A stretch of 64,000 nt of DNA from Bacteroidota bacterium (GCA_016699635.1 CP064983.1:2267331-2331330); one strand, 5' to 3'; counted from the stretch's first letter, positions 1 through 64,000 are shown. Numbers and translations are program-made. The notes: generated from the letters alone by a model not told the origin.

Positions 1-121
1 CTTAACGGCTGCCGTCTTACATAAATTACAGCAGACTTTGGGGGGTATTTAATTTTTTATAATTTAATAGAAAATTATACGCAAGTTCTAATCGGCTCAG
101 GTTTTGAAATACGTTCTACTT

Positions 122-736
122 TCATTTGTTCAAAAACTTATTAATTGCTTCAGTTCTATTCTGAACATGAAGCTTTTCATAAATTTTATGAATATGCTGT
201 TTTACTGTTCCGGTACTAATGAAAAGTTGTTCTGATATTTCTTTATATAACAGTCCCTTTGCAAGTAATGTTAGAATTTCAGATTCACGTACACTTAAAA
301 TGGCATTTGTTTTTTGCCCAGGTTTAAATGAATTTATCACTTTTCGTGCTATAATTGGACTCATCGGTGAACCTCCATCGTACATCTCTTTAACTGCTTC
401 CAGAAATTGTGCAGGTGTTGTTTTTTTTAGTAGATACCCACTTGCACCTGCTTGCAACGCATCAAATATTATTGTATCATCATCATAAACGGTAAAAATT
501 AGAAACAATTGGTTACAGTTGTTTTTTATTAAATACTTAATTGCTTCTATTCCATTTATACCAGGTAGATTGATGTCCATTATCACAATTTCTGGATTTA
601 ACTCAGGAATTTTATCAATAGCATCTTCAGCATTGCCAAATGTGCCACAACATTTGAACTCACCTGAAAGATCCAAGACACTCTTAAATCCGTCTCTTAT
701 TTCATGTATGTCCTCAACAATGCATACCTTAATCAT
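122..736 (-). CDS. Two-component response regulator, NarL/LuxR family (REC receiver domain + C-terminal HTH_LuxR)
   Basis: ORF translation has the receiver-domain signature (…VIMDINLPGINGIEA…) and a C-terminal LuxR-type HTH (…LTLLAKGLLYKEISEQLFISTGTVKQHIHKIY…). It lies directly downstream of a histidine kinase on the same strand. Confidence 0.85.
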   Translation of the reverse strand: MIKVCIVEDIHEIRDGFKSVLDLSGEFKCCGTFGNAEDAIDKIPELNPEIVIMDINLPGINGIEAIKYLIKNNCNQLFLIFTVYDDDTIIFDALQAGASGYLLKKTTPAQFLEAVKEMYDGGSPMSPIIARKVINSFKPGQKTNAILSVRESEILTLLAKGLLYKEISEQLFISTGTVKQHIHKIYEKLHVQNRTEAINKFLNK

Positions 737-781
737 GTTGCAATATTAATTATTTGAGGGGTAAATTAGATATAACTTTTG

Positions 782-2701
782 TTAACTAAATTCGATTCTT
801 GTGATAGTTCCTTTAGTAATTTCTGAAGTTACAAATACAGAACAGCCTATTTGCATTGCTCTTTTTTGAATGTTAATTAAACCATTCCCGTTTTTGTAAT
901 TAATATCATCGGGAGAAAATCCGATACCATTGTCTTTGATAGTTAGGTGATGCCTTTTTTCAATATAGTCGTATATAAGAATGATTTCGTTAGATTTAGA
1001 ATGCTTAATGCTGTTGTGCAAAGTTTCTTTTATTATGAGAAATAAATTTCTTTTTTGCTCAGGACTAAGTGTATAATCAGAAATCTCTTGATTTAATTTA
1101 AAATTAAATATTTTTCCGTTTAATTCTATAATTTCCATCGTATATCGCTTTAAATAATGAATAAAGTCTGATAAACTGCTGCTTTCAGGATTCATGCTCC
1201 AGATTATTTGTCGCATTGAGTCAACAAGTTCATTTGATAACTCACTGATTCGTTTTATTTCAGTTTTTCCCTCGGTCTTTTGAAGAGCTAGTTCGCTCAG
1301 TAATCGTATGGTTGAAAGACCTGCACCTAAATCATCATGTAATTCTGAGGCTACTCTTTTTCTTTCATTATCCTGTGTGTTGATTATAGTTTGCAGTCTA
1401 TCAATTTCATAGTTTTCTTTTATTTTATTCAATTGGCTCTCTATTATTATTTTTTCCTTAAATTGTATCTTTGACATATAGCTTAATCCTAGTGTAAAAC
1501 AAATTACTTCCAATATTATACCTAATTGCATATATAACATATGGTAATTAATAAATGGATTTGCTGATGGATAATAAAATAATGATAGAATCATGGTTAC
1601 CGTAGCACCGCTTACCATAAGTAAACTCCCTGTCGCTAAAATTTTTGACAGAGGACTTTTTATTAAAAAAGCACTAAGAATTATGATTATTGCAATTGGG
1701 GCCATTGTGATTCTGAAAATGTTATAGGCTTTATTTCGAATTTCGAAGAAATGATTTTGATATAAAAAAATATCAAAAATCAAATACGTGATGATTAGGT
1801 AGATTATTACCTGTATGGTTTTGTAAAGTATTGGAGAAATGTTTTTATAATCTACGAAACTTATTGCGAAAAAAAAATAAAACAGATAAGATAAAGTTTG
1901 CCAGGTAATATCTCGAAAGGGTTCTAATTGAAAAGAGTAGTAGGAGGTAACAGAATTGTCGTGATGACGTATAAAAAAGTATAAAAAAGTAAAAAGTAAA
2001 TAAAGGAAATAGTATATGAAAACTTTTTTGTGATTAAGTGTAAAATAGACAATGGAAAACAACATCATACAAATTAAGACGCCTAATAAAACATTTAATG
2101 GTAAATGATAATATTTGTAAGTGAGTTTATCGCCTTGCATTAATTTAAAAAGAACATCTTCGGTTTTGGAGGAGCTTTCTGTGTTTATAAATAACAAAAG
2201 TTTGTTAAATGGCTTGTAGTGTCCAGATATATTTATCCATAGCTTATATGAAGAATTAGGCATAAAGGTTAATGGAAAGATAAAGGAATTGCTTTTTGTT
2301 ACTACGTTTTTCAGATAATAATATTCTAGATCCCCTAACGATTCATTAAATAGGTAGATTGATGATGAAGGGAAGGCTCCTATATAAAAGTATCTGGTAG
2401 TTTTATGTGCTGAATTATTCTTCCATTCTGAATATATCCAGATGCCTTTTATAGATTTATCCTTAATAGTATAAGGTATATTAATCTTTACATCGGATTG
2501 TAATTTTGGAAAGAAATTCTGATCAGCAACTTGATTGAAGTGTAGTGTTAAACTTGAATCATAGAATAAGCTGCAACGAAAATAGGGTTCTTTCAAGTCA
2601 TCAGATATCAGGTTTGACTCACCTACATTAGACTTAGTATATCCGTTACGGCTTAATATCAGACAAGTAAATATGAAGAAACAAATATGAGTGATTCGCA
2701 T
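782..2701 (-). CDS. Sensor histidine kinase with a 7TMR-DISM-type periplasmic domain, a 7-TM region and a HisKA_3 + HATPase_c core
   Basis: Signal peptide, ~200-aa extracytoplasmic domain, multiple hydrophobic TM helices, coiled-coil linker. The HisKA_3-type H-box (…RKRVASELHDDLGAGLST…) and C-terminal ATPase motifs (…DNGIGF…GNGL…) are present. Paired with the LuxR regulator. Confidence 0.8.
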   Translation of the reverse strand: MRITHICFFIFTCLILSRNGYTKSNVGESNLISDDLKEPYFRCSLFYDSSLTLHFNQVADQNFFPKLQSDVKINIPYTIKDKSIKGIWIYSEWKNNSAHKTTRYFYIGAFPSSSIYLFNESLGDLEYYYLKNVVTKSNSFIFPLTFMPNSSYKLWINISGHYKPFNKLLLFINTESSSKTEDVLFKLMQGDKLTYKYYHLPLNVLLGVLICMMLFSIVYFTLNHKKVFIYYFLYLLFTFLYFFIRHHDNSVTSYYSFQLEPFRDITWQTLSYLFYFFFAISFVDYKNISPILYKTIQVIIYLIITYLIFDIFLYQNHFFEIRNKAYNIFRITMAPIAIIIILSAFLIKSPLSKILATGSLLMVSGATVTMILSLFYYPSANPFINYHMLYMQLGIILEVICFTLGLSYMSKIQFKEKIIIESQLNKIKENYEIDRLQTIINTQDNERKRVASELHDDLGAGLSTIRLLSELALQKTEGKTEIKRISELSNELVDSMRQIIWSMNPESSSLSDFIHYLKRYTMEIIELNGKIFNFKLNQEISDYTLSPEQKRNLFLIIKETLHNSIKHSKSNEIILIYDYIEKRHHLTIKDNGIGFSPDDINYKNGNGLINIQKRAMQIGCSVFVTSEITKGTITRIEFS

Positions 2702-2776
2702 TTTTGTAATGCGAATGTAATTGAAAAAATAACAGGTAATGATTTCTCATTACCTGTTTCATTGAGTTAATTTTAA

Positions 2777-6124: not shown

Positions 6125-6151
6125 AAATATTTTTTCAGCAATTAGTTTAAG

Positions 6152-7463: not shown

Positions 7464-7467
7464 ATGG

Positions 7468-11242: not shown

Positions 11243-13510
11243 GACGGATGATTATTTTTTTTGTAATATTATTGGATTGTGCAGCAATAGTTATTAAGTA
11301 AATGCCATTTGCAAATTTTTCTGTATTTAATAACGTGCTACGAGAAAAAGTGTTTTGTGAATGAATAATTCTTCCTGATAAATCAGTAAGGGTAATTTGT
11401 TTTTTCAAGCCATTGGCATCATCAGTATCAATTATCAGATGTGAGTTAGCAGGATTGGGATAAACATTAACCTGATAATCTGACAAGACATTATTAATAG
11501 CAAGTGGACATCCCGGCAATGAATTTGAATAGAACGATAATCCACCTGCCTGATTGCCTACAATTATTTCAGGAGAGCTATCATTATTCAGGTCGGCCAT
11601 TGCGGGTGCAGCACGAGGTGGTTCATGAATTAAGTATGCATTATTACTAATCAGATGAAAAGTGCTTCCTGCAGTTGTGTTGATGCTGTCGTATAAAAAC
11701 AAATCTCCACTTTCTGAACCAACAAGAAGCTTTAAAGTTCCATTGTCAGAAAATAAATGTGGTACGCTGTAGCCATAAAATGTCTGTGCTGTGTTGGTAA
11801 CATTGATGTTGCCGAATGTAGGTGTTATGAGAGTAAAAATTGGTGTATTAACGGTTCCGGTATTCTGGAAGTAACTTATCTTACCGAATAATTCGCCTGA
11901 AATTAAATCTAAGAGTCCATCATTGTTGATGTCATAAAGTTGTGGGGTACTGTTGCTACCTACATCTAAATTCTGAAAATTAAATCCGCCTGTTGTTAAA
12001 GTATATTGAGGAATGTTTCCTGCGCCTGCTGTGTTGGTATAGTAATGAAAAGTGCCGTCTTCATTGCCAAGTAATAAATCGGCATCACCATCACCATCAA
12101 GGTCGCCAAAGGCAGGATAAATGTTTTTGTAATTATATTGCTGAAAAGAACCAAAGTTGTTTGACACCAGTGTAAACTCAGGACACTGTCCTGTGCAAGT
12201 ATTTTATACCAGGATAATGCAGCTTCATCGTGTGCAGGTCCACTTTGTGTGATAAAATAACCTTTGTTGCCAATAACAATATCTGTTTTTCCATCAGCAT
12301 CAACATCAAAAAATACAGGCATTGAAGCAGTGCCTACATCAATCATTTCATCTGTAAGAAATTTATTTTTCACATATTGAAAATCGGGAGAAGTATTGCT
12401 TCCTGCATTATGATAATACCAGTTGTTATTCAGATTTTCTGATTGCGACTCTGTGCAGGACGAAACAATCATATCTGTTATGCCGTCATTATCTGCATCT
12501 AGCAAGTAGGCACTTGGAAATGTTACGTAATTTACCGGGCCGCCATTTGACGGAAATGATGTATCCTGCCAGTCAATACTGTCTGAAGCATTATTTGAAG
12601 CGCCATTATGCAGATAAAGTAAGTTGTCTCCTAATAAATCACCATTCAGCAAATCTGCATCACCATCACCATCATCATCAAATGCAATCATACATGTTCC
12701 TGAATGACGATTGGATAAAACATCAGCATTACCACTTGTTAAAGGAATTCTTGGTAAACCAAGTATGGCACTGTTGGCATTACTGCTTAGCGACATGTGT
12801 CCCCATTTTGAATTGACTTCAGACAAAACAAGTGTATCTGTTCTGTTGAATAATTCTTTTGCCATGTTTTCATGATACTCAATAAAGTTTGCCGAAATCT
12901 GAAATGTCAATACATCAAGGTCTCCATCGTTGTTGATGTCAAATAATACAGGTTGATTTACCGGTGCTACATAAAGACTTGTTGTAAAGCAATTGCCACC
13001 GGCATTCAGATAACAAGTTTGCAATCCTTGATATTGTAAACTAAATGTCAATATTCCTGTTGTGTTAGAGTCGTTGTGATATACATCAAAACCTGAAACT
13101 GAACGATTGTAAGTAAAAATATCTTCGCGACCATCGCCATCATAATCAACAAGAAGGCAAAAGTTTGTCATGTTTTGCGGAAAAAGTTTTTCGTAAAAAG
13201 GATCATAGCGATAGTCAATATCCCCTGCACTGCCATAATTGATAAAAGTTCTTATCTTAAAAACACCGGGATAGGTTGACTCCGATTGTTTTTCAAAGGC
13301 AAACAAATCTTTTTTGCCATCATTGTTCATGTCAATAGCCTGAAACATGGCAGAGTTAAAACCTCCTGCCCATGCATTGCGAAGCGGTTGACCATTTTTA
13401 ATTACAATTGGCGATGTGTATTTTACGAAAGCCTGCGAAAATGCTGTTGTATTAATAAGCAGTAAAGAAAATAGAAAAACACAAAAATTTCTCATATTAA
13501 AATTTAACAA
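11235..13510 (-). CDS. FG-GAP/VCBS-repeat secreted protein with a T9SS C-terminal sorting domain, one apparent -1 frameshift
   Basis: Signal peptide. Repeated FG-GAP-like units with D-x-D/N-x-DGxxD calcium-loop motifs (…DMNNDGKKDLF…, …DYDGDGREDIF…, …FGDLDGDGDADLLLG…, …DINNDGLLDLISG…). C-terminal Por/T9SS domain (…VYPNPANSHLIID…ANGIYLITIA…). ORFs 11996..13510 and 11235..12167 join if one base is restored in the T4 run at 12202..12205. Paralogous to the next gene. Confidence 0.65.
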
Positions 13511-15774
13511 TCTTATGTGAACTGAAGTGATTGCTCTCAGTTACTTGAAGAACATAAATACCTTTAGTTAATCCCTCAAGACTTATGTTATTAATATAAC
13601 TTTGAAAAGAGCCTTCCATTACTACCTTGCCTGAAATATCGGATAGTTGATATTTGCCGTTATGCGGGTTGTTTTTATTCAACTCAAAAACAATATGATC
13701 TTTTGCAGGATTAGGATAGACTGTAATTTCTTTTTCAGGATGCAGGTTTTCTGCAATGCCTACCGGCAGGTTTTTTGAATAAATTGAAAGGCCACCTGCA
13801 TAGCATCCAGTAATCACTTCGTCCATGCCGTCACCGTTAAGGTCGGCCATATCGAATGAAGTCTGATAAGGTTCGAATACTGAAAACATACTTGTTGAAA
13901 CCTGATTAAATGTGCCGCCAAGGTTGCCATCAATGTTATCGTATTTTTGAATGTATCCGTTTTCATTTGAAACCAAAAGCTTCGACACACCGTTTTCTTT
14001 ATAAAAATGTGGATAGCTGAATCCATAAAACGATTGTGCATTTCCAACAAATACATTGCCTACTTTATTGGTAACATAGGTAAATGTAGGATTGGTTGAT
14101 GAGCCCGTATTCTGATAATAATAAATATACCCATATCGTTCACCGATGATAAGATCTAAGAGTCCATCATTATTAATATCAGCTAAAAAAGGAAAGCTGT
14201 TTGTTCCTACATCAATGTTCTGAAAGTTAAAACCATTAGGCGCAAGAGTGAATGTTGCAGGTGTTGTACCATTGTTCAAATAGTAGTGCAAAATACCATC
14301 TTTATCACCTAAAATCATATCATCATGACCATCACCGTTTAGGTCTCCAAATGTTGCATTTAATCCGGTTCTCCCTAATGAACGCAGGTTGTTGAAGTCG
14401 TCAGTCACAAATTCAAATTCAGGTAGTGCACCTGTAGTGATGTTATGATAATAAGATAATGCAGATTCATAATGACCGCTTGCCGAATCTTGAGTAAAGT
14501 ATCCGAAGTTGCCTATTATCAAATCTTTTTTTCCGTCATTGTCAACATCAAAAAAGCGTACGTATGCACCTGAACCTACGTCAATCATTTCATCAGTAAG
14601 AAAACGTTTTTTACAAACTGAAACTGATTGTTGGTGTTTGATCCAACATTTTATAGAACCATGAGTTTTGATAATCTTCTGTCAGATATTCTGTACAACT
14701 AGAAACAATTAAATCTTTTGCACCATCATTAACGGCATGAAAATAAAAAGGCGCAGGGAATGTTTTATAAACTGCAGGAACATTATACGATGGAAAAAGT
14801 GTGTCCTGCAGGTGAATGGAATCACTCACTCCCGGAATGCCGCTGTTTTCAAGATAAAGCAGGTTGTTGCCAAGAATATCACCATTTATCAAGTCAAGGT
14901 CACCATCACCATCCTGATCATATCCTATCATGCAGGAGCCATTGTGACGTGGTGTTTTTATCAGTGAATCGGGTAGTGGTGGCGGTGCCAGAAAGAAACA
15001 ATTATTAAAATCAAGAATAGCTGTATTGGAAACGGCACTTAAACCTACTTGTGCATAACACTGTCGCACCTGCCGATAGACTAAAGTGTCGCAACGGTTA
15101 TAAAGTTCTTTTGCATAATTTTCGTGATACTCAATTGTGCCACCAAGCAATGTGAAAGTTAAAACATCCAAATCACCATCACCATTTACATCATGCAAAA
15201 CAGGAATGTTAACATTGCTCACGTACAAGTTAGCATAAGCACCACCTAAAAATAAACTATGAACAAGAGGGTATGTTAAACTGAAAGAAAGATTATTTCC
15301 GGGAGTAACATCATTATGATAAACTTCCATACCACCTGAGTAGGAGTAAGTAAAAATATCTTCATTACCATCGCAATCATAGTCAACCAATATTACCCAG
15401 TCATGCAGATTTTGTGGAAAAAAACGCTCGTAAAATGGAGCATAGATATAATCAACCTGTCCTGCTGTTCCCTGATTGATAAAAGTTCTGATTTTATAGG
15501 AGCCCGGATAGGCTGCACCAAATTGTTTATCGAACATAAACAAATCCTTGATGCCATCATTGTTTAAATCAATGGTGCTGTAAAGTGGAGAGTTGATGCC
15601 ACCTGACCAGGGATTTTTAAAAGCCTGACTATTGACAAACACCTTAGGCGAAGTGTACTTGCTGTAGTTCTGTGCATGAGTAGTATTGGCAGTTGCAAAT
15701 ACGATAAGGCAAAGCATGGCATGTCTTAAAACATGGCTGATGTTGTTGATTTTCATTTTCTGATATTGAGTCAT
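13497..15774 (-). CDS. FG-GAP/VCBS-repeat secreted protein with a T9SS C-terminal domain, tandem paralog of the preceding gene, two apparent frameshifts
   Basis: Domain order and motifs match the adjacent gene (…DLNNDGIKDLFMF…, …DYDCDGNEDIF…, …FGDLNGDGHDDMILG…, T9SS CTD …VYPNPAKDHIVFEL…GIYVLQV…). ORFs 14611..15774 and 13497..14588 join across two single-base gaps in T-runs at 14607..14612 and 14649..14652. Confidence 0.65.
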
Positions 15775-15872: not shown

Positions 15873-16365
15873 ATGCCATCATTTGATATCGTTAATGAAA
15901 TAGACATTCAGAAATTAGACAATGCCATTAATGTGGCAAAGAAGGAAATTGTTAACCGCTACGATTTTCATGGTTCTAAGACAGAAATTGATTTAGACAA
16001 GAAGGAAATGCAGTTAAAAATTGTTACTGAAGATCAGATGCGTATGGATGCTATTCGCGACATCATCATCAGCCGAAGCATGAAGCAAGGGGTTGACCCG
16101 AAATGTTTCGATTTTGGCAAAGAGCAGTATGCCTCCGGCAATATGGTTCGTAAAGATGTGAAAATAAAAAAAGGAATTGATAAGGAAACTGCCAAAACCC
16201 ATTGTGAAATATATTAAAGAAACAGGGATGAAGGTGCAGGCATCTATCATGGATGAGCAGGTGCGCGTTACAGGCAAAAAAATTGATGACTTGCAACAGG
16301 TTATTGCCGAAGTAAAAAACAAACCTGTGGAGTTGCCATTACAATATGTTAATTTCAGGTCGTGA
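15873..16365 (+). CDS. yajQ: YajQ-family nucleotide-binding protein (UPF0234), one apparent frameshift near 16195
   Basis: Matches the YajQ family throughout ([18 protein letters not shown]…, …[21 protein letters not shown]…NFRS). The two ORFs 15873..16217 and 16177..16365 are the N- and C-halves of one ~163-aa protein. Confidence 0.8.
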
Positions 16366-28015: not shown

Positions 28016-29407
<1,392 letters not shown>

Positions 29408-46856: not shown

Positions 46857-46928
46857 GCGGAAGTAGCTCATTTGGTAGAGCGATAGCCTTCCAAGCTATA
46901 GGTGGCGGGTTCGAGCCCGTCTTCCGCT
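46857..46928 (+). tRNA. tRNA-Gly (anticodon TCC)
   Basis: GCGGAAGTAGCTCATTTGGTAGAGC-ATAGC-CTTCCAA-GCTAT-…GGGTTCGAGCCCGTCTTCCGCT. Confidence 0.85.
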
Positions 46929-50928: not shown

Positions 50929-51426
50929 ATGACAAGAGAAGAAAAAAATATAGAAATAGATAGCCTGGCACAACAGTTCAGCGAGTTTCCAAACTTCTAC
51001 ATTACTAATGTAGAGAGCCTGAACAGTGATAAAACATCTAAGCTGCGCAGACTTTGTTACAGCAGAAATGTAAAACTGCGTGTAGCAAAAAATAACCTCA
51101 TCAAGAAGGCATTACAAAAGTTGGATCCAACTGCTTATGATACGTTGATTCCTGCATTAAAAGGTACTTCGGCAATTATGTTCAGTGAAGTATCAAACGT
51201 GCCTGCAAAACTTATAAAAGAGTTCAGAGCAAAAGACAGCGTTCCTGCAATAAAAGCTGCATGGATTGATTCATCAATCTTTGTTGGCGACAATCAGTTA
51301 GAGGTATTAGCAAATCTGAAATCTAAGAATGAACTTATTGCAGAGGTTATTGCATTACTTCAGTCACCTGCTAAAAATGTGGTTTCACAACTTACATCTG
51401 GGGCAGCAAACTGGCAGGTATATTAA
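50929..51426 (+). CDS. rplJ: 50S ribosomal protein L10
   Basis: Position between rplA and rplL. L10-like N-terminal domain (…FYITNVESLNSDKTSKLRR…). Confidence 0.85.
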   Translation: MTREEKNIEIDSLAQQFSEFPNFYITNVESLNSDKTSKLRRLCYSRNVKLRVAKNNLIKKALQKLDPTAYDTLIPALKGTSAIMFSEVSNVPAKLIKEFRAKDSVPAIKAAWIDSSIFVGDNQLEVLANLKSKNELIAEVIALLQSPAKNVVSQLTSGAANWQVY

Positions 51427-51523
51427 AAACATTAGAAGAGAAAAGGTTCTTAAGCTTCCACCTTTGAATCTTAAACTATAGTACAATTCAAATAAACATT
51501 TAAAACAATTAAAATTAAATAAA

Positions 51524-51898
51524 ATGGCAGATTTAAATGCATTCGCAGAACAGTTGGTAAACCTGACAGTAAAAGAAGTTCAGGAACTTTCAACCATTCT
51601 AAAAGACAAATACGGTATTGAGCCTGCTGCTGCAGCACCAGTTATGATACCGGTGGCGGTGGCGGTGGCGCAGCTGCTGCTGAAGAAAAACATCTTTGAT
51701 GTAATTCTTAAGTCAGGTGGTAATGCAAAACTGGCAGTAGTAAAGCTGGTAAAAGAATTGAGCGGACTTGGCTTGAAAGAAGCTAAAGACTTAGTTGATG
51801 GCGCTCCAAAACCGGTTAAAGAAGGTGTTTCTAAGGAAGAAGCAAATTCTATCAAGCAACAACTTGAAGAAGCCGGAGCTGAAGTTGAGATCAAGTAA
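51524..51898 (+). CDS. rplL: 50S ribosomal protein L7/L12. The reading frame has an internal compensated double frameshift in the hinge region.
   Basis: N-terminal dimerisation domain and C-terminal domain (…[67 protein letters not shown]) are canonical. The hinge reads …[15 protein letters not shown]… whereas an alternative frame across 51651..51697 gives …[13 protein letters not shown]…. Confidence 0.9.
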
Positions 51899-52023: not shown

Positions 52024-55000
52024 TTGGCTGCAATCACATCAACGCCAGATAAAGGCGGTTCAAAAAGAATAAACTTCTCTAAGAATAAAAACTTAATTGA
52101 TTATCCTGACTTTCTCGACATTCAGTTGAAATCGTTTCAGGATTTTTTCCAGATCGAAACAACATCTGACAACCGTCAGAATGAAGGTCTTTATAAAGTA
52201 TTCGCAGAAAACTTTCCGATAACGGATTCACGAAATAATTTTGTGCTTGAGTTTCTCGATTATTTTATTGACCCGCCAAGATATTCTATTCAGGAATGTC
52301 TTGAAAGAGGACTCACACACAGTGTACCTCTAAAAGCTAAATTAAAATTGTACTGTACCGACCCTGAGCATGAGGATTTCGAAACTATTGTTCAGGATGT
52401 TTACTTAGGTACAATTCCGTACATGACACCAAAGGGAACCTTTGTGATTAATGGTGCAGAACGCGTTATTGTTTCGCAGTTGCACCGTTCACCGGGAGTA
52501 TTTTTCGACAAAGCCGTCATGCTAACGGAACAAAACTTTATTCAGCACGTGTAATTCCTTTCAAAGGATCGTGGATTGAATTTGCAACAGACATTAACAG
52601 TGTCATGTATGCGTACATTGACCGTAAAAAGAAGTTTCCGGTTACCACATTGTTCCGTGCAATAGGTTTTGAAAGCGATAAACAGATTCTTGAAATTTTC
52701 GGACTTGCTGACGAGATTAAAGTAAGCAAATCAGGATTAAAATCACATGTTGGCCGTAAGTTAGCTGCACGTGTTCTTAAATCGTGGGTTGAAGATTTTG
52801 TGGATGAAGATACCGGTGAAGTAGTTTCTATCGAGCGTAATGAAATTATTCTTGAGCGTGAAACCTTCCTTGAAGATCATCACATTGACCTGATTATTGA
52901 AGCCGGAGTAAAATCCATTATCCTTCATAAAGAAGATGGCAACTCTGCTGACTATGCAATTATTTACAACACGCTGCAGAAAGATACTTCCAACTCTGAA
53001 AAAGAAGCGGTTGAACATATCTATCGTCAGTTGCGTAATGCAGAACCACCGGATGAGGAAACAGCACGTGGTATCATCGAAAAACTTTTCTTCTCTGATA
53101 AGAGATATGATTTAGGTGAAGTAGGTCGTTACCGTATCAATAAAAAACTTAACCTCAATACACCTGAAGATGTGAAGGTGCTTACTAAAGAGGATATTAT
53201 TTTAATCATAAAGTACCTCATTCAGCTTATCAACTCTAAAGCTGATGTGGATGATATTGATCACTTATCAAACAGACGTGTACGTACAGTTGGCGAACAA
53301 TTATATTCTCAGTTTGGTGTAGGTTTTTCCCGTATGGCGCGTACCATCCGTGAGCGTATGAACGTTCGCGACAACGAAGTGTTTACGCCTGCTGATTTGA
53401 TTAATGCAAAAACATTGTCTTCAGTAATCAATTCATTCTTCGGAACCAATCAGTTGTCACAGTTTATGGATCAAACAAATCCGTTGGCTGAGATTACGCA
53501 TAAAAGAAGGCTCTCTGCCCTTGGACCCGGAGGTCTTTCGCGCGAGCGTGCAGGTTTCGAGGTACGTGACGTTCACTATACACATTACGGACGTTTGTGT
53601 ACCATTGAAACACCTGAAGGACCAAACATCGGTTTGATTTCTTCACTCTGTGTTTTCGCAAAAATCAACAATCTTGGATTCATTGAAACACCTTATCGTG
53701 TAATCGAAAACGGAAAAGTGGATTTGAATCGTCCTCCTGTATTTTTAACTGCAGAAGAAGAAGATAATAAAGTAATTGCACAGGCAAATGCACATATTGA
53801 TGCAACAGGAAACTTCCTTGATGCACGTGTTAAAGCACGTTATGAAGGTGACTTCCCTGAAGTAGATCCTGAGCATCTGCACCTGATGGACGTAGCACCT
53901 AATCAGATTGCATCTATTGCAGCATCATTGATTCCTTTCCTTGAACATGATGATGCAAACCGTGCACTGATGGGTTCAAACATGCAACGGCAGGCTGTGC
54001 CGTTGATGCGCCCGGAAGCCCCTGTTGTTGGAACAGGACTTGAAGGTCAGGTGGTGCGCGACTCACGTGTGCTCATCAATGCGCAACATGATGGGGTAGT
54101 TGAATATGTAGATGCCAATGAAATTCGTGTTCGCAGCATTCTTTCAGAAGATGAAAAACTGTTGAGCTTTTAGTGATGAGATTGAAGTTTATAATCTGAT
54201 AAAATTCCAGAAGACAAATCAAAGCACTTGTATTAACCTTAAGCCTATTGTTAGAAAAGGGGAGAAGGTTAGAGCAGGACAGGTATTGTGCGAAGGTTAT
54301 GCAACCAAAGACGGTGAATTGGCCTTAGGACGTAACCTTAAAGTTGCTTTCATGCCCTGGAAAGGAAATAACTTCGAAGATGCTATTGTGATTTCTGAGC
54401 GTGTTGTACGCGAAGATATTTTCACTTCTCTTCACGTTGATGAATATACGCTTGAAGTTCGTGACACCAAGCGTGGTCTTGAAGAACTTACTGCAGATAT
54501 TCCAAACGTTAGTGAAGAAGCAACCCGCGACCTTGATGATAACGGATTGATTCGTGTTGGTGCAGAAGTGAAAGAAGGAGATATCATTATCGGAAAAATC
54601 ACACCAAAAGGAGAAACAGATCCTTCACCCGAAGAGAAACTGCTTCGTGCCATCTTTGGTGATAAAGCCGGTGATGTTAAAGATGCATCACTGAAACTGC
54701 CACCATCTGTAAAAGGTGTTGTAATTGACAAGAAGTTGTTTTCACGTGCAGTGAAAGATAAAAACTCAAAGACTGATGATAAAGTAGTGTTAACCAAACT
54801 TGATGATGAGCAGGCAAGAGATCTATCAGCTATAAAAGCTAAATTGGTTGACAAACTGTTTATCCTCGTTAATGGAAAAACATCGCAAGGTGTGATGGAT
54901 ATCTTTAAAGAATTTGTTATTCCGAAAGGCAGCAAGTTTACTCAGAAGATGTTGCAGGAGTTGGATTATAATAACATCAACCCATCAAAATGGACAACCG

Positions 55001-55851
55001 ATAAAGATCGTAATGATCAGATAAAAGAGTTGTTGCACAACTACAACATTAAAGTAAATGATGTGGTAGGTTCCTATAAACGTAAGAAGTTTGCTATTCA
55101 GGTTGGTGATGAACTGCCAGCAGGTATTATGCAGTTAGCAAAAGTTTACATTGCTAAAAAACGTAAACTTACAGTAGGTGATAAGATGGCATACCGTCAT
55201 GGTAATAAAGGTATTGTTGCTAAGATTGTCCGTGAAGAGGAAATGCCTTTCCTTGAAGACGGAACACCTGTTGACATTGTACTTAATCCGCTTGGTGTAC
55301 CTTCCCGTATGAACCTTGGTCAGATTTATGAAACTGTACTTGGATGGGCAGGACAAAAGTTAGGTGTAAAGTTTGCAACACCAATATTTGATGGAGCAAC
55401 ATTAGATGAAATTGAACATTATGTAGATAAAGCAGGATTATCGAAATATGGTGCTACATACCTTACAGATGGTGGCACAGGAGAACGCTTCGATCAGCCT
55501 GCAACAGTTGGTATCATCTATATGCTTAAGTTAGGTCACATGGTTGATGATAAGATGCATGCCCGTTCAATAGGACCATACTCACTCATCACGCAACAGC
55601 CTTTAGGTGGTAAAGCACAGTTTGGTGGTCAGCGTCTTGGTGAGATGGAGGTATGGGCACTTGAAGCATTCGGTGCATCAAACATTCTTCAGGAATTGTT
55701 GACAGTTAAGTCTGATGACGTAGTTGGAAGAGCTAAAGCTTATGAAGCAATTGTTAAAGGAGATAACATGCCTACACCGGGAGTACCTGAGTCGTTCAAT
55801 GTATTACTGCATGAATTGCGTGGATTAGGTTTAAAAATAACATTAGATTAA
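52024..55851 (+). CDS. rpoB: DNA-directed RNA polymerase beta subunit, two apparent frameshifts (near 52510 and 54170)
   Basis: Three collinear ORFs (52024..52554, 52605..54173, 54286..55851) together cover RpoB. Conserved blocks include …[11 protein letters not shown]…, …[18 protein letters not shown]…, …[16 protein letters not shown]…, …GNKGIV…, …[15 protein letters not shown]…. The start is a TTG. Confidence 0.9.
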
Positions 55852-55920: not shown

Positions 55921-58900
55921 ATGGCAGCAAAACGCGATAATAAAATAAAAAGTAATTTTTCACGCATCATCATCAGCTTACCTTCACCGGAACACATTCT
56001 GGAGCAGTCAAGCGGTGAAGTGCTGAAACCAGAAACAATTAACTACCGCACGTATAAACCAGAGCGTGATGGTTTGTTTTGCGAACGCATTTTCGGTCCT
56101 GTAAAAGACTGGGAATGTCATTGCGGCAAGTACAAGCGTATCCGTTATAAAGGAATTGTTTGTGACCGTTGCGGTGTAGAAGTAACAGAAAAGAAAGTTA
56201 GACGTGAGCGCATGGGACACATACAGTTAGTTGTTCCTGTTGCACACATCTGGTATTTCCGTTCTTTACCTAATAAAATCGGTTATCTATTAGGATTACC
56301 TACAAAGAAATTAGATCTGATTATTTACTACGAACGTTATGTAGTAATTCAGGCAGGTATAAAAGCACAGGATGGTGTAAACTATCTTGACTTCCTCACC
56401 GAAGAAGAGTACCTGAATATTCTTGACAACCTTCCAAAAGAAAATCAGCATCTTGACGATACTGATCCGAATAAATTTATTGCAAGAATGGGAGCAGATG
56501 CTTTGTATGACCTGCTTTCACGCCTCGACCTTGATGAGTTATCCTATAAACTACGTCATCAGGCAAGCAATGAAACTTCGCAGCAACGTAAGAACGAAGC
56601 ATTAAAGAGACTCAACGTAGTTGAAGCTTTCCGTAATGCGAATCAGAATATTGAAAACCGTCCTGAGTGGATGATAGTAAAAGTTGTTCCTGTTATTCCA
56701 CCGGAACTTCGTCCATTGGTTCCATTGGATGGCGGACGTTTTGCAACATCCGATCTGAATGACCTTTACAGACGTGTAATTATTCGTAACAACCGTTTGA
56801 AGCGATTGCTTGAAATCAAAGCTCCTGATGTGATTTTGCGTAATGAAAAGCGTATGTTGCAGGAAGCAGTAGATTCTCTTTTCGATAATTCACGCAAAGT
56901 GAATGCCGTTAAAACTGAATCAAACCGTGCATTAAAATCACTTTCAGATTCATTAAAAGGTAAACAAGGACGTTTCCGTCAGAACCTTCTTGGTAAACGT
57001 GTTGATTATTCTGCACGTTCGGTAATTGTTGTTGGTCCTGAAATGAAATTGCATGAGTGCGGATTACCGAAAGATATGGCAGCAGAATTATTCAAGCCAT
57101 TTATTATCCGTAAACTTATTGAAAGAGGAATTGTAAAGACAGTTAAGTCTGCTAAGAAAATTGTAGATCGTAAAGATGCTATAGTTTGGGATATTCTTGA
57201 AAACGTATTAAAAGGACATCCTGTATTACTTAACCGCGCCCTACACTTCACCGTCTCGGTATTCAGGCATTCCAGCCAAAACTTATCGAAGGAAAAGCAA
57301 TTCAGTTACATCCATTGGTGTGTACAGCATTCAACGCGGATTTTGACGGTGACCAGATGGCTGTTCACGTTCCTTTGGGAAATGCTGCCATTTTGGAAGC
57401 TCAGTTGTTGATGCTTGCACCCCATAATATTCTTAACCCTGCCAATGGTGCGCCTATTGCAGTGCCTTCTCAGGACATGGTTCTTGGCTTGTATTACATG
57501 ACTAAGGGTAAGAAATCAACAGATAAAGAAAAAGTAAAAGGAGAAGGTTCTGTTTTCTATTCTCCTGAAGAGGTTACCATTGCGTTCAATGAAGGCCGTG
57601 TTGATTTACATGCATACATAAGAGTAAAAACATTCATCAAAGAAAATGATGAAATTGTAAAACGAGTGATAGAAACCACTGTTGGACGTATATTGTTCAA
57701 CGAAGTGGTTCCACGTCAGGCAGGATATATTAACGATGTACTTACAAAAAAGGCATTGCGTGATATCATCAGCCAGGTATTGAAGACCTGTGGAATTGCG
57801 CAGACAGCACGTTTCCTTGATGATATAAAAGATCTTGGATTTAAGATGGCATTTAAAGGTGGTCTTTCTTTCAACCTTAACGATGTATTGATTCCTGGTG
57901 CAAAAGCTGAATTGGTTACTAAAGCACAGTCAGAAGTAGAAGAGGTTCGTAACAGCTACAACATGGGATTCATTACCAATAACGAGCGTTACAATCAGAT
58001 TATTGATATCTGGACACGTACCAATACACGTATTACAGAAACGTTGATGAAGCAATTAATTGCTGATAAACAAGGTTTCAACGCAGTGTATATGATGCTT
58101 GATTCCGGTGCGCGTGGTTCTAAAGAGCAGATTCGTCAGTTAGGCGGAATGAGGGGATTGATGGCAAAGCCGCAAAAGTCAGGTGCATCAGGTGGTGAGA
58201 TTATCGAGAATCCGATTCTTTCAAACTTTAAAGAAGGATTATCAATTCTTGAATACTTTATCTCAACACACGGTGCGCGTAAAGGTCTTGCCGATACAGC
58301 GTTAAAGACTGCCGATGCAGGTTATCTGACCAGAAGGCTTGTTGACGTAGCACAAGATGTTATCATCACAGAACCTGATTGCGGAACATTACGTGGTCTT
58401 TCTGAAACAGCATTGAAAAATCAGGAAGAAGTTGTTGAGACATTATATGACAGAATTCTTGGACGTGTATCGTGTCACGATATCTATCACCCATTAACCG
58501 GTGAATTGGTTGTTCGTGCAGGTGATGAAATAAAAGAGGACGTTGCAACACAAATAGAAGAATCACCATTAGAATCCGTAGAAATCAGATCAGTATTGAC
58601 CTGCGAATCGAAACAAGGTGTATGTGCTAAATGCTATGGCAGAAACTTAGCTACAGGACGTATGGTTCAGAAAGGTGAGGCTGTTGGTGTTATTGCAGCA
58701 CAGTCTATTGGTGAACCGGGTACACAGCTTACACTTCGTACTTTCCACGTGGGTGGTGTTGCACAAAAAGGTGCATCAGAGTCACGACATGAGGCGAAGT
58801 TTGGTGGTGTTATCGAACTTGAAGAAATGCGTACGCTGCCTTATAAAGAAGGCGATAATAAATATGAAGTTGTTGTTGGTCGTTCGGGTGAATTCCGAAT

Positions 58901-60215: not shown

Positions 60216-60239
60216 AATTTAGATAGAGCATATTTAAAC

Positions 60240-60280: not shown

Positions 60281-60420
60281 AACAGGTAGTTAGTTTTTGA
60301 AATTGTATGCTCTAATTTGATTATACAATTTTAAAATGTAATAGATAAAATTTTTATTTTCGTATTTTGTTAACCCAAATGTAAATAACCATTGGTAGGT
60401 TAGTTTTAGAGATTAGAAAA

Positions 60421-61530
60421 ATGCTAAAAAAATTACCTGTTATCCTTGTGTTTATTGACTGGTATAAACCAGCATACAAAGGTGGAGGTATAATTTCCTG
60501 TTGTGATGCATTAGTAGAGCATCTGAAAGACAGATATTGCTTTAAAATAATTACACGAAACGCAGACTTGGGTTCCACCAAACAGCTTGAAGGAATTAAA
60601 AGTGATTGTTGGGTTCAACGTACTGAAAATGTAGAAGTATTTTATCTTTCAAAAGATAAGATTGGTGTTTTCAATATGAAATCATTGATTGAAAGTACGC
60701 CACATGACCTATTATACATTAATGGGGTATTTTCGTTTTATTTTAGTTTATTGCCTTTAATAATCAATAAGTGGCGTAAACTTCAACACCTAACATTGGT
60801 TGCTCCAATGGGGATGTTATGTTTAGGAGCACTTAAATTCAAGAATATTAAAAAGACTCTTTATCTTAAAACAGCTAAGTTGCTTAATTTGTATTCGGAT
60901 ATTTCGTGGCATCTGTCATCAGAATATGAAAAGAATGACCTTGAGAAAGTGTTGGGAAGCGAAGGAGAATTTTATGTTGCTCCCTATTTATTTAATCCGC
61001 CACAAACAGAATATAAAACGGCAAAGAAGGAAAATAATTTGCTGCGAATGGTTTTTATTTCACGGATATCACCCAAAAAAAATCTTTTAGCTTGCTTTCG
61101 TTATTTATCACAAGTTGATTTAAATGTGAAAGTGATTTTTGATGTTTATGGCCCGGTAGAAGATGAATCTTATTGGAATGAATGTTTGAATCAGATGAAT
61201 AAACTTGGAAAAAACATTCAATGTAGCTACCGTGGAGAATTGAAAGCTGAAGAGGTTATAAAAACATTTCAAAGTTATAATGTTTCTATTTTACCAACTT
61301 TCAGCGAAAACTTTGGGCAGGTTATACCGGAATCTTTACTTGCTGCATGTCCTGTAATTATAAGCGATCAAACACCATGGAATAAATTGGAAGAGCATTC
61401 TGCCGGGTGGGTGTTTTCTTTAAAAGAAGAAAATAGGTTTGTGGATATAATATGCACTCTTGCGAAAATGACAAATGAGCAATTTAAGGTTTATTCGGAA
61501 GGAGCTTATCAATATGCAAAAGGCTTTTAG
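60421..61530 (+). CDS. Glycosyltransferase, GT4 (group 1) family
   Basis: C-terminal GT-B nucleotide-sugar-binding half (…FISRISPKKN…YGPVEDESY…, …ESLLAACPVIISDQTPWNKL…). Confidence 0.65.
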   Translation: MLKKLPVILVFIDWYKPAYKGGGIISCCDALVEHLKDRYCFKIITRNADLGSTKQLEGIKSDCWVQRTENVEVFYLSKDKIGVFNMKSLIESTPHDLLYINGVFSFYFSLLPLIINKWRKLQHLTLVAPMGMLCLGALKFKNIKKTLYLKTAKLLNLYSDISWHLSSEYEKNDLEKVLGSEGEFYVAPYLFNPPQTEYKTAKKENNLLRMVFISRISPKKNLLACFRYLSQVDLNVKVIFDVYGPVEDESYWNECLNQMNKLGKNIQCSYRGELKAEEVIKTFQSYNVSILPTFSENFGQVIPESLLAACPVIISDQTPWNKLEEHSAGWVFSLKEENRFVDIICTLAKMTNEQFKVYSEGAYQYAKGF

Positions 61531-62575: not shown

Positions 62576-62626
62576 ATTTTTTTAGTGGCGCAAAGATAAC
62601 CAAATTAGCTTATTACAAAAGAGAAA

Positions 62627-63598
62627 TTATGAATTTCCTTTTGGTGGCTTACCGATTGACTCACGCATAGATGTGTCGGCCTGAATGTTTTCCATTTTGT
62701 AATAGTCCATTATGCCTAATTTACCACTACGAAAAGCTTCTGCCATAGCCATAGGAATTTGTGCTTCGGCTTCAATAACTTTGGCTCTTGCCTCTTGTGC
62801 TTTGGCAATCATTTCCTGTTCTAAAGCTACGGCTGCAGCCCTGCGCTCTTCTGCCATTGCCTGTGCTACCTTTAAGTCTGCAGAAGCCTGTTCCATCTGA
62901 AGTTTTGCTCCAATGTTTTCACCTACATCAATATCGGCAATGTCTATAGATAAAATTTCAAATGCCGTGCCTGCATCAAGACCTTTGTTTAATACAGTTT
63001 TTGAAATCTGATCGGGATTTTCTAATACACTTTTATGGTCATGTGCCGAACCAATAGTAGTTACAATACCTTCGCCAACACGTGCAAGAATGGTTTCCTC
63101 ACCTGCACCACCAACTAACTGATTGATGTTGGTGCGAACGGTAACACGAGCACGTACTACCAATTGAATTCCGTTTTTGCCCACAGCAGAAACAGGAGGG
63201 GTGTCAATAACTCGTGGATTTACAGAAAGCTGAACAGCGTCTGCAACATCGCGACCGGCCAGATCAATTGCTGCTGCCATTTTAAATGATAAGGGAATGT
63301 TTGCTTTATCAGCAGAAATTAGTGCTTTAATAACATTATTTACATTTCCTCCTGCCAGATAGTGTGTTTCTAAATCAGGAATGGTAACACTTAGACCTGC
63401 TTTAGTTGCAGTAATCATAGCATTAACAATTACACTTGGTGGTACTTTTCTGAAACGCATCAGGATTAAGTTCAGGATGCTGACTTTCACACCGGAGAAT
63501 GTTGCAGTTATCCAAAGGTTAACAGGAACAAAATACAAGAACAAAAAGAACAGGATAATACCTGCAACAACCAGAATGAGTAACGGAATACTTGCCAT
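62627..63598 (-). CDS. floA: Flotillin-like protein FloA (SPFH/band-7 family, UPF0365)
   Basis: N-terminal TM hairpin. SPFH domain. C-terminal Ala/Glu-rich coiled coil (…[36 protein letters not shown]…). Sits downstream of an NfeD gene as in Firmicutes yqeZ-floA pairs. Confidence 0.75.
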
Positions 63599-63616
63599 TT
63601 TTTTTAATTTTTAAGT

Positions 63617-63973
63617 TTATATTTTTTTTACAATAAGTTTGTTTGCCAATACTTCAATCACTTCAACTGTAGCGTTTGCTTCTATCATTTCGCCAAGTGA
63701 TTGCACCTCTACTTTTTTATTATGAAATACTGCTGTGCCCATAGGTCTCAATGCAGAAAGTGTTTTTCCATGATCTCCGGATTTTATATCCATTTCATCA
63801 ACACGCTCAATTTTAGAATCACTTGATTGTTGCAGGCTGAACCTGCGCCAAACATTGTAACGAAATGCAAGATAAATGGTAGATAGTGTTACAGTAAGTG
63901 TACTTAGTGCAACGATGGTGCCTGCAGTATTTCCCAGTTCATGAAAGGAATACCAGATGCCACCCAAAATCAT
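63617..63973 (-). CDS. NfeD-family membrane protein (C-terminal OB-fold domain). The N-terminus may extend beyond the ORF start or the window.
   Basis: TM segment followed by a beta-rich OB-fold-like tail (…GKTLSALRPMGTAVFHNKKVEVQSLGEMIEANATVEVIEVLANKLIVKKI). Forms an operon with floA. Confidence 0.6.
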   Translation of the reverse strand: MILGGIWYSFHELGNTAGTIVALSTLTVTLSTIYLAFRYNVWRRFSLQQSSDSKIERVDEMDIKSGDHGKTLSALRPMGTAVFHNKKVEVQSLGEMIEANATVEVIEVLANKLIVKKI

Positions 63974-64000
63974 TAATGCACCAATGATACCTGCAATTAA

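What the first reader, a model, noticed from the sequence alone, without database searches (positions are those of the whole stretch)
1..64000. Pervasive single-base indels, mostly in homopolymer runs, split essential genes: a sequence-quality artefact, not gene decay
At least 15 genes in 64 kb are split into collinear ORFs. Among them are genes that cannot be inactive in a living cell: rpoB (twice), rpoC, dnaB and serS. At each junction I inspected, the frame is restored by adding or removing one base. Most are in short homopolymers: AAA at 52510..52512 in rpoB, TTTT at 54168..54171 in rpoB, CCC at 57239..57241 in rpoC, T6 at 14607..14612 and TTTT at 14649..14652 in one FG-GAP gene, and TTTT at 12202..12205 in its paralog. 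Roughly one indel per 3 kb is the signature of an uncorrected long-read or other homopolymer-prone assembly. This matters for every downstream call. Apparent pseudogenes, truncated domains and odd start codons here should be treated as untrustworthy. Single-ORF genes can also hide compensating shifts, as the rplL finding shows.
Basis: seen in the sequence. Interest (0 to 1): 0.55.

Follow-up and report, generated by a model that had tools for sequence, protein, structure and literature searches.

The report
Assembly errors break essential genes
About a third of the genes in this 64-kb stretch of a metagenome-assembled Bacteroidota genome look broken, but only because of single-base sequencing and consensus errors: independent assemblies of the same species carry every one of these genes intact.

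Summary
The window belongs to a 3.25-Mb NCBI contig labelled "MAG: Bacteroidota bacterium". Eight independent assemblies of the same species (99.6-99.9% identical DNA) cover every base at least twice. Against them the window has 29 one-base indels (1 per 2.2 kb), one nonsense substitution and about 117 mismatches. The references agree with each other at every indel. With the reference bases, every broken gene becomes one open frame.

Seventeen of about 48 protein genes are split or truncated, including rpoB, rpoC, dnaB and serS. tuf and rplL stay single ORFs but hide compensated shifts. One tRNA-Gly lacks a base.

Nineteen of the 29 indels are homopolymer length changes, and the error rate rises with run length. 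Most of the rest are multi-base garbles at two palindromic motifs, GGCC (7 of 57 sites) and GWGCWC (5 of 25). This profile suggests an incompletely polished Nanopore consensus; the platform itself could not be verified.

Verdict: an artefact with no biological novelty. It is useful only as a quality flag.

The parts
12202..12205 (-). T4 in window, T5 in references. Splits FG-GAP/T9SS paralog B (753-758 aa elsewhere) into 11999-13540 and 11238-12203.
14607..14612 (-). T6 in window, T7 in references. First of two deletions in FG-GAP/T9SS paralog A (759 aa elsewhere).
14649..14652 (-). T4 in window, T5 in references. Second deletion in FG-GAP/T9SS paralog A.
16198..16200 (+). C3 in window, C2 in references. 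Truncates yajQ to 114 aa (163 aa elsewhere).
21582..21586 (+). A5 in window, A4 in references. Splits rmlD (300 aa elsewhere).
22372..22378 (-). T7 in window, T6 in references. Splits dnaB (522 aa elsewhere) near its C-terminus.
24180..24183 (-). T4 in window, T5 in references. Splits the OmpA domain off the TPR/PD40/OmpA protein (640-653 aa elsewhere).
25114..25114 (-). Substitution, T in window and C in references. On the coding strand this is TGG (Trp) to TGA, an in-frame stop in the same OmpA-TPR gene.
26284..26289 (+). T6 in window, T5 in references. Splits the AraC-family regulator (269 aa elsewhere).
28136..28137 (-). AA in window, A in references. Shifts the C-terminus of the Gfo/Idh/MocA oxidoreductase (463 aa elsewhere).
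29165..29169 (-). T5 in window, T6 in references. Splits the N-terminus of the same oxidoreductase.
32116..32119 (+). A4 in window, A5 in references. Splits ccmB.
34175..34178 (-). GAGCAC in references, G-GCGC in window (1-bp deletion plus a mismatch at a GWGCWC site). Shifts the DsbD-like gene.
35001..35004 (-). A4 in window, A5 in references. Second shift in the DsbD-like gene (686-702 aa elsewhere).
37865..37870 (-). T6 in window, T7 in references. Lies at the 5' end of the open frame of the TPR protein (called as 592 or 612 aa elsewhere, 595 aa here).
38578..38581 (-). G4 in window, G5 in references. Splits serS at profile position 197 of 418 (422 aa elsewhere).
40885..40886 (+). GG in window, G in references. 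First shift in the 1435-aa GEVED/T9SS protein.
41245..41247 (+). GGCC in references, GCTAC in window (two mismatches plus a 1-bp insertion). Second shift in the 1435-aa protein.
46916..46918 (+). C3 in window, C4 in references, at the 3' end (GGTTCGAGCCCC) of tRNA-Gly(TCC). The gene is 73 nt here and 74 nt elsewhere.
47706..47709 (+). GAGCAC in references, GGCGAC in window (a deletion and an insertion 3 nt apart). Changes the EF-Tu motif TREH to TRGD without breaking the ORF.
48496..48496 (+). Substitution, A in window and G in references. EF-Tu REGGRT becomes REDGRT. Probable substitution error.
51401..51402 (+). Missing C: GGCGG in references, GGGG in window. Frameshifts the C-terminus of rplJ (165 aa here, 174 elsewhere).
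51441..51444 (+). A4 in window, A3 in references, at the rplJ 3' end.
51648..51649 (+). GGCC in references, -ACC in window. First of three deletions in rplL.
51686..51690 (+). A5 in window, A6 in references. Second deletion in rplL.
51695..51697 (+). T3 in window, T4 in references. Third deletion in rplL. The three together remove one codon and scramble about 15 residues.
52507..52507 (+). G in window, GG in references. First rpoB frameshift.
54168..54171 (+). T4 in window, T3 in references. Second rpoB frameshift, which returns to the original frame.
55192..55193 (+). GGCC in references, TACC in window. RpoB motif GDKMAGRHGNKG becomes ...AYRHG. Substitution-type error at a GGCC site.
55636..55638 (+). 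TTC in references, CTT in window. RpoB GGQRFGEMEV becomes [10 protein letters not shown]. Probable substitution error.
57237..57239 (+). GTGCTC in references, GCGC-C in window (a mismatch plus a 1-bp deletion at a GWGCWC site). This is the rpoC frameshift.
61525..61528 (+). T4 in window, T5 in references. Truncates the glycosyltransferase C-terminus (369 aa here, 389 elsewhere).
18047..18049 (+). GGCC in references, GCTA in window. Three-base garble in purN with no frameshift.
31111..31112 (-). GGCC in references, GGTA in window, in the M43 peptidase gene.
33324..33325 (+). GTGCAC in references, GTCGAC in window (GWGCWC site), in or next to the small ccmD-like ORF.
42404..42407 (+). GGCC in references, ACTA in window. 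Four-base garble in the 1435-aa T9SS protein.
46210..46211 (+). GGCC in references, GTAC in window, in purE.
58764..58765 (+). TCAAAA in references, CAAAAA in window, in rpoC. Aligned as two mismatches, but could equally be a compensated deletion and insertion at an A run.

Best explanation
The broken genes are not biological. The window is part of a long single-contig metagenome-assembled genome whose consensus still carries uncorrected sequencing errors. I see three kinds.
1. One-base length errors in homopolymers, mostly deletions, with a rate that rises with run length.
2. Multi-base garbling, with or without a net 1-bp indel, at particular sequence contexts. These are chiefly the palindromes GGCC (especially ATGGCC on the + strand) and GWGCWC.
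3. Scattered substitutions, one of which creates a stop codon.

Each error in a coding region shifts or stops the frame, so a gene caller sees collinear fragments. Two or three nearby errors can cancel out and leave a single ORF with a scrambled internal segment, as in rplL and tuf.

Shown: the errors are absent from every independent assembly of the same species, and removing them restores every gene. Inferred: the platform. The contig length, the homopolymer deletions and the motif-specific garbling fit an incompletely polished Oxford Nanopore (R9-era) consensus. The motif errors may reflect DNA methylation at those sites.
For: - Source: exact protein look-ups place the window on a 3,254,474-bp NCBI contig labelled 'MAG: Bacteroidota bacterium'.
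- References: 14 loci from 8 independent assemblies cover every window base at least twice, at 99.57-99.92% identity.
- Indels: there are 29 unique 1-bp indels, and the references are unanimous at each.
- Repair: in the reference composite every affected gene is a single open frame.
- Replication: the intact proteins occur exactly on many contigs. Counts are rpoB 38, rpoC 36, dnaB 150, serS 89, rmlD 185, rplL 451, rplJ 236, tuf 37. The seven window fragments looked up are not in the collection.
- Homopolymer profile: the indel rate is about 0.02% for single bases, 2.3-3.7% for A/T runs of 5-7, and 1.6-14% for G/C runs of 4-5. Deletions outnumber insertions 19 to 10.
- Motifs: GGCC is the most error-prone 4-mer, 7 of 57 sites against a baseline of 0.76% (binomial p = 2.8e-7). 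GWGCWC is altered at 5 of 25 sites (p = 6e-6). ATGGCC is altered at 5 of 10 sites but its reverse complement GGCCAT at 0 of 9. That asymmetry points to a base-calling or polishing context effect, not to mutation.
- Invariant residues: the errors hit EF-Tu TREH (now TRGD) and REGGRT (now REDGRT). They also hit RpoB GDKMAGRHGNKG (now AYRHG) and GGQRFGEMEV (now [10 protein letters not shown]), compared with solved Bacteroidota RNA polymerases 9n9p and 8dkc.
- Literature: Nanopore consensus errors are dominated by methylation-motif errors and then homopolymer length errors (PMC6591954). R9.4.1 MAGs need short-read polishing to remove homopolymer indels that fragment gene calls (PMC9262707).
Against: - I could not retrieve the source record, its sequencing-technology field or its reads. 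The platform is therefore inferred.
- Only 12-20% of GGCC and GWGCWC sites are affected, and the effect is strand- and context-specific. The link to methylation is plausible but unproven.
- The first 12.2 kb has no indel at all (Poisson P about 0.001; P = 0.025 from homopolymer counts). The error process is uneven along the contig, and I cannot explain why.
- The references are other strains of the species, not the same DNA sample. Strictly, a private real mutation cannot be excluded at any single non-essential site.
Confidence: 0.96

Rival explanations
1. Genuine gene decay: this strain is a degenerating lineage, for example host-restricted or dying, whose genes are really being pseudogenised by frameshift mutations.
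For: About 35% of the protein genes are disrupted, a density seen in real genomes only during extreme reductive evolution. The references are not from the same sample, so strain-private mutations are formally possible.
Against: - Single-copy essential genes are all hit within 64 kb: rpoB, rpoC, dnaB, serS, rplJ, and invariant residues of tuf.
- The rest of the DNA is 99.6-99.9% identical to intact genomes. There is no accumulation of other lesions, deletions or IS elements.
- Lesions follow homopolymer length and specific k-mer contexts, with strand asymmetry.
- Clustered SNPs elsewhere are 40 synonymous to 13 non-synonymous, which indicates purifying selection.
Confidence: 0.01
2. Recoding: the frameshifts are real in the DNA but are bypassed by programmed ribosomal frameshifting or by transcriptional slippage at the homopolymers, as in some endosymbionts.
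For: Nineteen of the 29 indels lie in A/T or G/C runs. Such runs are the substrate for polymerase slippage.
Against: - The runs are short (3-7 nt). From my own knowledge, rescue by transcriptional slippage needs roughly 9 or more A/T.
- None of the sites is conserved even in 99.9%-identical relatives, which encode the genes in a single frame.
- Ten indels are not in runs of 3 or more.
- One lesion is a stop codon and one lies in a tRNA gene.
- No conserved slippery heptamer or stimulatory structure was looked for, because the comparative test already fails.
Confidence: 0.005
3. The errors are real artefacts but come from another homopolymer-prone source (454, Ion Torrent, or low-coverage PacBio CLR) rather than Nanopore.
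For: Length-dependent homopolymer indels are common to all of these platforms. The platform metadata could not be retrieved.
Against: - A 3.25-Mb single contig from a metagenome is not what 454 or Ion Torrent assemblies give.
- Multi-base garbling concentrated on GGCC and GWGCWC matches the methylation-motif error class described for Nanopore (PMC6591954).
- From my own knowledge, it does not match the near-random error of PacBio CLR consensus.
Confidence: 0.12

Closest known systems
Residual consensus errors of Oxford Nanopore R9-type assemblies: homopolymer indels plus methylation-motif errors (Wick et al. 2019, PMC6591954; Sereika et al. 2022, PMC9262707)
   Same: One-base homopolymer length errors with a length-dependent rate and a deletion bias. 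Localised multi-base miscalls at short palindromic motifs. Fragmented gene calls in an otherwise highly contiguous MAG. All are absent from short-read assemblies of the same organism.
   Different: The motifs here are GGCC and GWGCWC rather than the Dcm motif CCWGG described for Enterobacteriaceae; 0 of 27 CCWGG sites and 0 of 102 GATC sites are altered. Only a minority of motif sites are affected, which would fit partial polishing. The platform is not verified.
Pseudogene-rich genomes in reductive evolution (for example Mycobacterium leprae and recent insect symbionts; my own knowledge)
   Same: A high fraction of ORFs is interrupted by frameshifts and stops.
   Different: In those genomes the essential core genes stay intact, lesions are shared within the lineage, and genes carry multiple lesions and deletions. 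Here rpoB, rpoC, dnaB and serS are hit, lesions are private to one assembly, and each gene differs from an intact copy by only one to three single bases.
Programmed frameshifting and transcriptional slippage (prfB, dnaX; poly-A slippage in Buchnera and Blochmannia; my own knowledge)
   Same: An apparent frameshift inside an essential gene, at a homopolymer.
   Different: Those sites are conserved across relatives and have defined slippery or long poly-A sequences. Here no site is conserved even among strains that are 99.6-99.9% identical.

Membership tests
Long-read (Nanopore-type) consensus error | Variants are absent from independent, accurate assemblies of the same organism | tested here: met
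   All 29 indels and the nonsense codon are absent from 2-5 independent assemblies at every site, and the references are unanimous
Long-read (Nanopore-type) consensus error | Indel rate rises with homopolymer length, with a deletion bias | tested here: met
   About 0.02% for single bases, 2.3-3.7% for A/T runs of 5-7, and 1.6-14% for G/C runs of 4-5. Deletions to insertions 19:10
Long-read (Nanopore-type) consensus error | Systematic miscalls concentrated on short (methylation-type) motifs | tested here: met
   GGCC altered at 7 of 57 sites (p = 2.8e-7) and GWGCWC at 5 of 25 (p = 6e-6). GATC, CCWGG and GCGC have 0 altered. That these motifs are methylated is not tested.
Long-read (Nanopore-type) consensus error | Errors ignore protein constraint (invariant residues and essential genes are hit) | tested here: met
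   EF-Tu TREH and REGGRT, RpoB GRHGNKG and QRFGEME, and frameshifts in rpoB, rpoC, dnaB and serS
Long-read (Nanopore-type) consensus error | The record was produced on that platform, and raw accurate reads contradict the consensus | not testable with these tools
   The source record and reads could not be reached
Programmed frameshift / transcriptional slippage | The frameshift site is conserved in relatives | tested here: not met
   Relatives at 99.6-99.9% identity encode each gene in one frame
Programmed frameshift / transcriptional slippage | A long slippery run or heptamer at every site | tested here: not met
   Runs are 1-7 nt. Ten of the 29 indels are not in runs of 3 or more, and one lesion is a stop codon
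Genuine pseudogenisation / genome decay | Essential single-copy genes are spared | tested here: not met
   rpoB, rpoC, dnaB, serS and rplJ are disrupted
Genuine pseudogenisation / genome decay | Relaxed selection and multiple lesions accumulate across the region | tested here: not met
   Clustered SNPs are 40 synonymous to 13 non-synonymous, and there are no larger deletions or rearrangements over 64 kb

The most novel reading that the evidence does not exclude
The error pattern itself may carry biology. The garbling at GGCC and GWGCWC could mark the target sites of two active DNA methyltransferases (HaeIII-like and HgiAI-like specificities) in this widespread, uncultured wastewater Bacteroidota lineage. 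If so, part of its methylome and restriction-modification repertoire would be readable from assembly errors alone. A far less likely reading is that one or two of the indels in non-essential genes, such as the FG-GAP/T9SS paralogs, are real strain-private or phase-variable mutations.
Probability: 0.4. Interest if true: 0.2.

Novelty: not a real feature. Interest (0 to 1): 0.08.

Why it matters
It matters only as quality control. Extrapolated to the 3.25-Mb genome, this error density would mean about 1,500 indels and roughly a third of genes mis-called. Apparent pseudogenes, truncated domains, odd start codons, unusual residues in conserved motifs and 'novel small ORFs' from this contig should not be taken as biology.

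Single-ORF genes are not safe either. tuf, rplL and the C-terminal piece of rpoB carry scrambled or substituted residues without a frame break. Other findings raised from this window should be re-checked against the intact same-species loci fetched here (L001-L014).

The catalogue of 29 indels, one nonsense codon and the motif garbles gives an exact repair list for the window.

Tried and rejected
- **Source record.** Exact look-ups of the window's own tuf (P0001) and TPR protein (P0102) found no gene on record. The platform could not be read from metadata.
- **Source paper.** I searched the literature for the genome length 3254474. I then checked three activated-sludge long-read MAG papers (PMC7966762 Table 1, PMC8518188, and PMC8012365 including supplements). 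None lists this genome.
- **Origin of the clustered, mostly synonymous SNP tracts in dnaB, tuf, rpoB and rpoC.** The aim was to separate recombination from cross-species read contamination during polishing.
  - A genome-contig scan with intact RpoC returned only relatives of 85% amino-acid identity or less.
  - Neither the window haplotype nor the reference haplotype matched any of these notably better.
  - Two exact-pattern scans of metagenome contigs for the window's rpoC tract haplotype found nothing.
  - The question stays unresolved.
- **Extended GGCC motifs.** YGGCCR, TGGCCA and AGGCCT do not fit all seven altered sites. The only strong sub-context is ATGGCC on the + strand.
- **Rfam scan of the whole window.** It found only tRNAs.
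- **Recoding and genuine decay.** I considered both as explanations and rejected them for the reasons given under the rival explanations.

Full report
**1. What is in the window.**
Six-frame ORF listing and three-frame translation show many adjacent, same-strand, overlapping open frames. NCBIfam and Pfam profile coordinates show that these neighbours cover consecutive parts of a single family:
- rmlD, profile positions 1-110 then 108-279;
- dnaB, 2-403 then 399-433;
- serS, 1-197 then 197-417;
- a DsbD-like protein, 67-261 then 260-512;
- ccmB;
- a CHU_0125/PorE-type TPR-OmpA protein, in three pieces;
- a Gfo/Idh/MocA oxidoreductase;
- two tandem FG-GAP/T9SS paralogs;
- a large GEVED/T9SS protein, in three pieces.

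rpoB runs frame 1, then 0, then 1. rpoC runs frame 1, then 0.

**2. Where the window comes from.**
Exact protein look-ups place it on a 3,254,474-bp NCBI contig labelled "MAG: Bacteroidota bacterium" (tuf = QQR94447.1, rplL = QQR94452.1, the next protein = QQR94453.1). No accession number falls between rplL and the glycosyltransferase. This suggests, by inference, that the depositor's annotation treats rpoB and rpoC as pseudogenes.

Some of the window's intact proteins occur with identical sequence on 100-250 other contigs from JGI, ENA, Logan and NCBI (for example L1 on 201 contigs). The seven split-gene fragments looked up are absent from the collection of about 15 billion proteins.

**3. 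The decisive comparison.**
I used five intact window proteins as anchors and fetched 14 loci from eight independent assemblies of the same species. They are:
- JGI 3300007582, a 406-kb contig that spans the whole window;
- ENA ERZ27275391, ERZ27258490 and ERZ27275353, with k141_ contig names;
- GCA_018053375, GCA_049363855, GCA_017999695 and GCA_035432685.

Every window base is covered by at least two of them, at 99.57-99.92% identity. In all of them the genes are intact:

| Gene | Length in references (aa) |
|---|---|
| rpoB | 1275 |
| rpoC | 1431 |
| dnaB | 522 |
| serS | 422 |
| rmlD | 300 |
| FG-GAP paralogs | 753-759 |
| GEVED/T9SS protein | 1435 |
| DsbD-like | 686-702 |
| Gfo/Idh/MocA | 463 |
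| AraC regulator | 269 |
| OmpA-TPR | 640-653 |
| YajQ | 163 |
| glycosyltransferase | 389 |
| L10 (rplJ) | 174 |
| L7/L12 (rplL) | 125 |

These intact proteins recur with exactly these sequences on 36 to 451 contigs each.

**4. The catalogue of differences.**
The alignment gives 29 unique one-base indels, 19 bases missing and 10 extra in the window, or 1 per 2.2 kb. The references agree with each other at every one.
- 28 indels lie in protein-coding genes. One lies at the 3' end of tRNA-Gly(TCC), which is 73 nt here and 74 nt elsewhere.
- In the reference composite every affected gene is a single open frame.
- Seventeen of about 48 protein genes are split or truncated.
- tuf has a deletion and an insertion 3 nt apart. 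rplL has three deletions within 47 nt. Both remain single ORFs with scrambled residues: TREH becomes TRGD in EF-Tu, and the L7/L12 hinge [17 protein letters not shown] is replaced by out-of-frame sequence.
- One gene split is not an indel. At 25114 a substitution turns TGG into TGA in the OmpA-TPR gene.

**5. The error signature.**
Nineteen of the 29 indels change the length of a run of 3 or more bases. Three change a run of 1-2. Seven are complex.

The per-run indel rate rises from about 0.02% for single bases to 2.3-3.7% for A/T runs of 5-7 and 1.6-14% for G/C runs of 4-5.

Most of the complex events, and most of the multi-base substitutions, sit on two palindromic motifs in the reference.
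- GGCC is altered at 7 of 57 sites. It is the most error-prone of all 4-mers, against a baseline of 0.76% (binomial p = 2.8e-7).
- GWGCWC is altered at 5 of 25 sites (p = 6e-6).
- None of 102 GATC, 27 CCWGG or 58 GCGC sites is altered.
- The GGCC effect depends on context and strand: ATGGCC 5 of 10, GGCCAT 0 of 9 (Fisher p = 0.001 for ATGGCC against all other GGCC sites). That asymmetry is what a base-caller or polisher would produce, not mutation.

Substitution errors also hit residues that are conserved in solved bacterial RNA polymerases: GDKMAGRHGNKG becomes AYRHG and GGQRFGEMEV becomes [10 protein letters not shown], compared with 9n9p and 8dkc. In EF-Tu, REGGRT becomes REDGRT.

Published benchmarks describe these two classes for Nanopore data. 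Methylation-motif errors come first and homopolymer length errors second among consensus errors (PMC6591954). Homopolymer indels in R9.4.1 MAGs fragment gene calls unless short-read polishing is applied (PMC9262707).

Together with the 3.25-Mb single contig from a metagenome, this makes an incompletely polished Nanopore consensus the most likely source. I could not confirm the platform from metadata.

**6. What is not error.**
Fifty-three mismatches fall in short tracts inside highly conserved genes:
- dnaB, 23397-23485;
- tuf, 48431-48469;
- rpoB, 53327-53339 and 54429-54450;
- rpoC, 57338-57470 and 58661-58765.

Of these, 38 are at third codon positions, and 40 are synonymous against 13 non-synonymous. 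They therefore derive from a functional, selected gene. They could be private variation or recombination in this strain, or reads of a related organism absorbed during polishing. I found no donor, so this stays open.

Conversely, the 11 isolated mismatches between 510 and 14739 are all non-synonymous transversions. That looks more like error than like natural variation, but I could not settle it.

The first 12.2 kb has no indel at all (P about 0.001-0.025), so the error density is uneven.

**7. Rival explanations.**
Genuine decay is excluded, for four reasons:
- single-copy essential genes and invariant residues are hit;
- the surrounding DNA is almost identical to intact genomes;
- the lesions follow homopolymer length and k-mer context;
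- selection is visible in the real SNPs.

Recoding by programmed frameshifting or slippage is also excluded, for four reasons:
- no site is conserved, even in near-identical strains;
- the runs are short;
- ten indels are not in runs of 3 or more;
- one lesion is a stop codon and one lies in a tRNA.

A different homopolymer-prone platform remains possible (about 0.1), but it fits the motif garbling and the contig length poorly.

**8.
Both the observation and the interpretation hold. Details to correct:
- the first rpoB shift is G versus GG at 52507, not AAA at 52510-12;
- the rpoC shift is a garbled GTGCTC at 57237-57239, not a CCC length change;
- one split is a nonsense substitution;
- about a third of the indels are not homopolymer events;
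- the density is 1 per 2.2 kb rather than 1 per 3 kb.

**9. Verdict.**
This is a sequence-quality artefact with no biological novelty and low interest. Its practical value is a warning for every other call made on this contig, plus an exact repair list.

The only mildly interesting residue is the possibility, at about 0.4, that the GGCC and GWGCWC error hotspots report DNA methylation specificities of this uncultured lineage.

Noticed in passing
window 18047-18049, 31111-31112, 41245-41247, 42404-42407, 46210-46211, 51648-51649, 55192-55193 (GGCC); 33324-33325, 34175-34178, 47706-47709, 57237-57239, 57448 (GWGCWC): Multi-base garbles sit on reference GGCC (7 of 57 sites; ATGGCC 5 of 10, GGCCAT 0 of 9) and GWGCWC (5 of 25 sites). 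No GATC, CCWGG or GCGC site is altered. This may report DNA methylation motifs of the organism, or only a base-caller k-mer context effect.
   Followed up: partly
window 23397-23485, 48431-48469, 53327-53339, 54429-54450, 57338-57470, 58661-58765: Short tracts of clustered differences in dnaB, tuf, rpoB and rpoC, mostly at third codon positions (40 synonymous, 13 non-synonymous). They reflect real divergence, either recombination or a related haplotype absorbed during polishing. The window's rpoC haplotype was not found in JGI metagenome contigs.
   Followed up: partly
window 510, 3107, 3109, 3131, 7465, 8474, 8515, 12229, 14063, 14732, 14739: All 11 isolated mismatches in the first 15 kb are non-synonymous transversions, mostly G/T or A/C exchanges. 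That spectrum is unlike natural SNPs and suggests a further class of substitution error.
   Followed up: partly
window 1-12200: No indel at all in the first 12.2 kb, although it holds 111 long homopolymers (P about 0.001-0.025). The error density along the contig is uneven, and the cause is unknown.
   Followed up: partly
window 46857-46929: tRNA-Gly(TCC) lacks one C near its 3' end (73 nt here, 74 nt elsewhere). ARAGORN and Rfam still detect it, so RNA genes are affected as well.
   Followed up: yes
window 51524-61530 (protein accession order): The source's protein accessions run QQR94452 (rplL) then QQR94453 (glycosyltransferase), with nothing for rpoB or rpoC. The depositor's annotation probably flags both as pseudogenes.
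   Followed up: no
window 11235-15813: Two tandem paralogous FG-GAP/VCBS beta-propeller proteins with T9SS C-terminal sorting domains (753-759 aa when repaired), next to an NHL/lactonase-like 495-aa protein.
   Followed up: no
whole window; loci L001-L014: The species is very widespread in public metagenomes: identical L1, L10 and L7/L12 proteins occur on 200-450 contigs. Its rpoB falls in the same 90% cluster as 'Bacteroidetes bacterium OLB10'.
   Followed up: no
window 58764-58765: TCAAAA in references against CAAAAA in window, in rpoC. BLAST aligns this as two mismatches, but it could be a compensated deletion and insertion at an A run. The true indel count may be slightly above 29.
   Followed up: no
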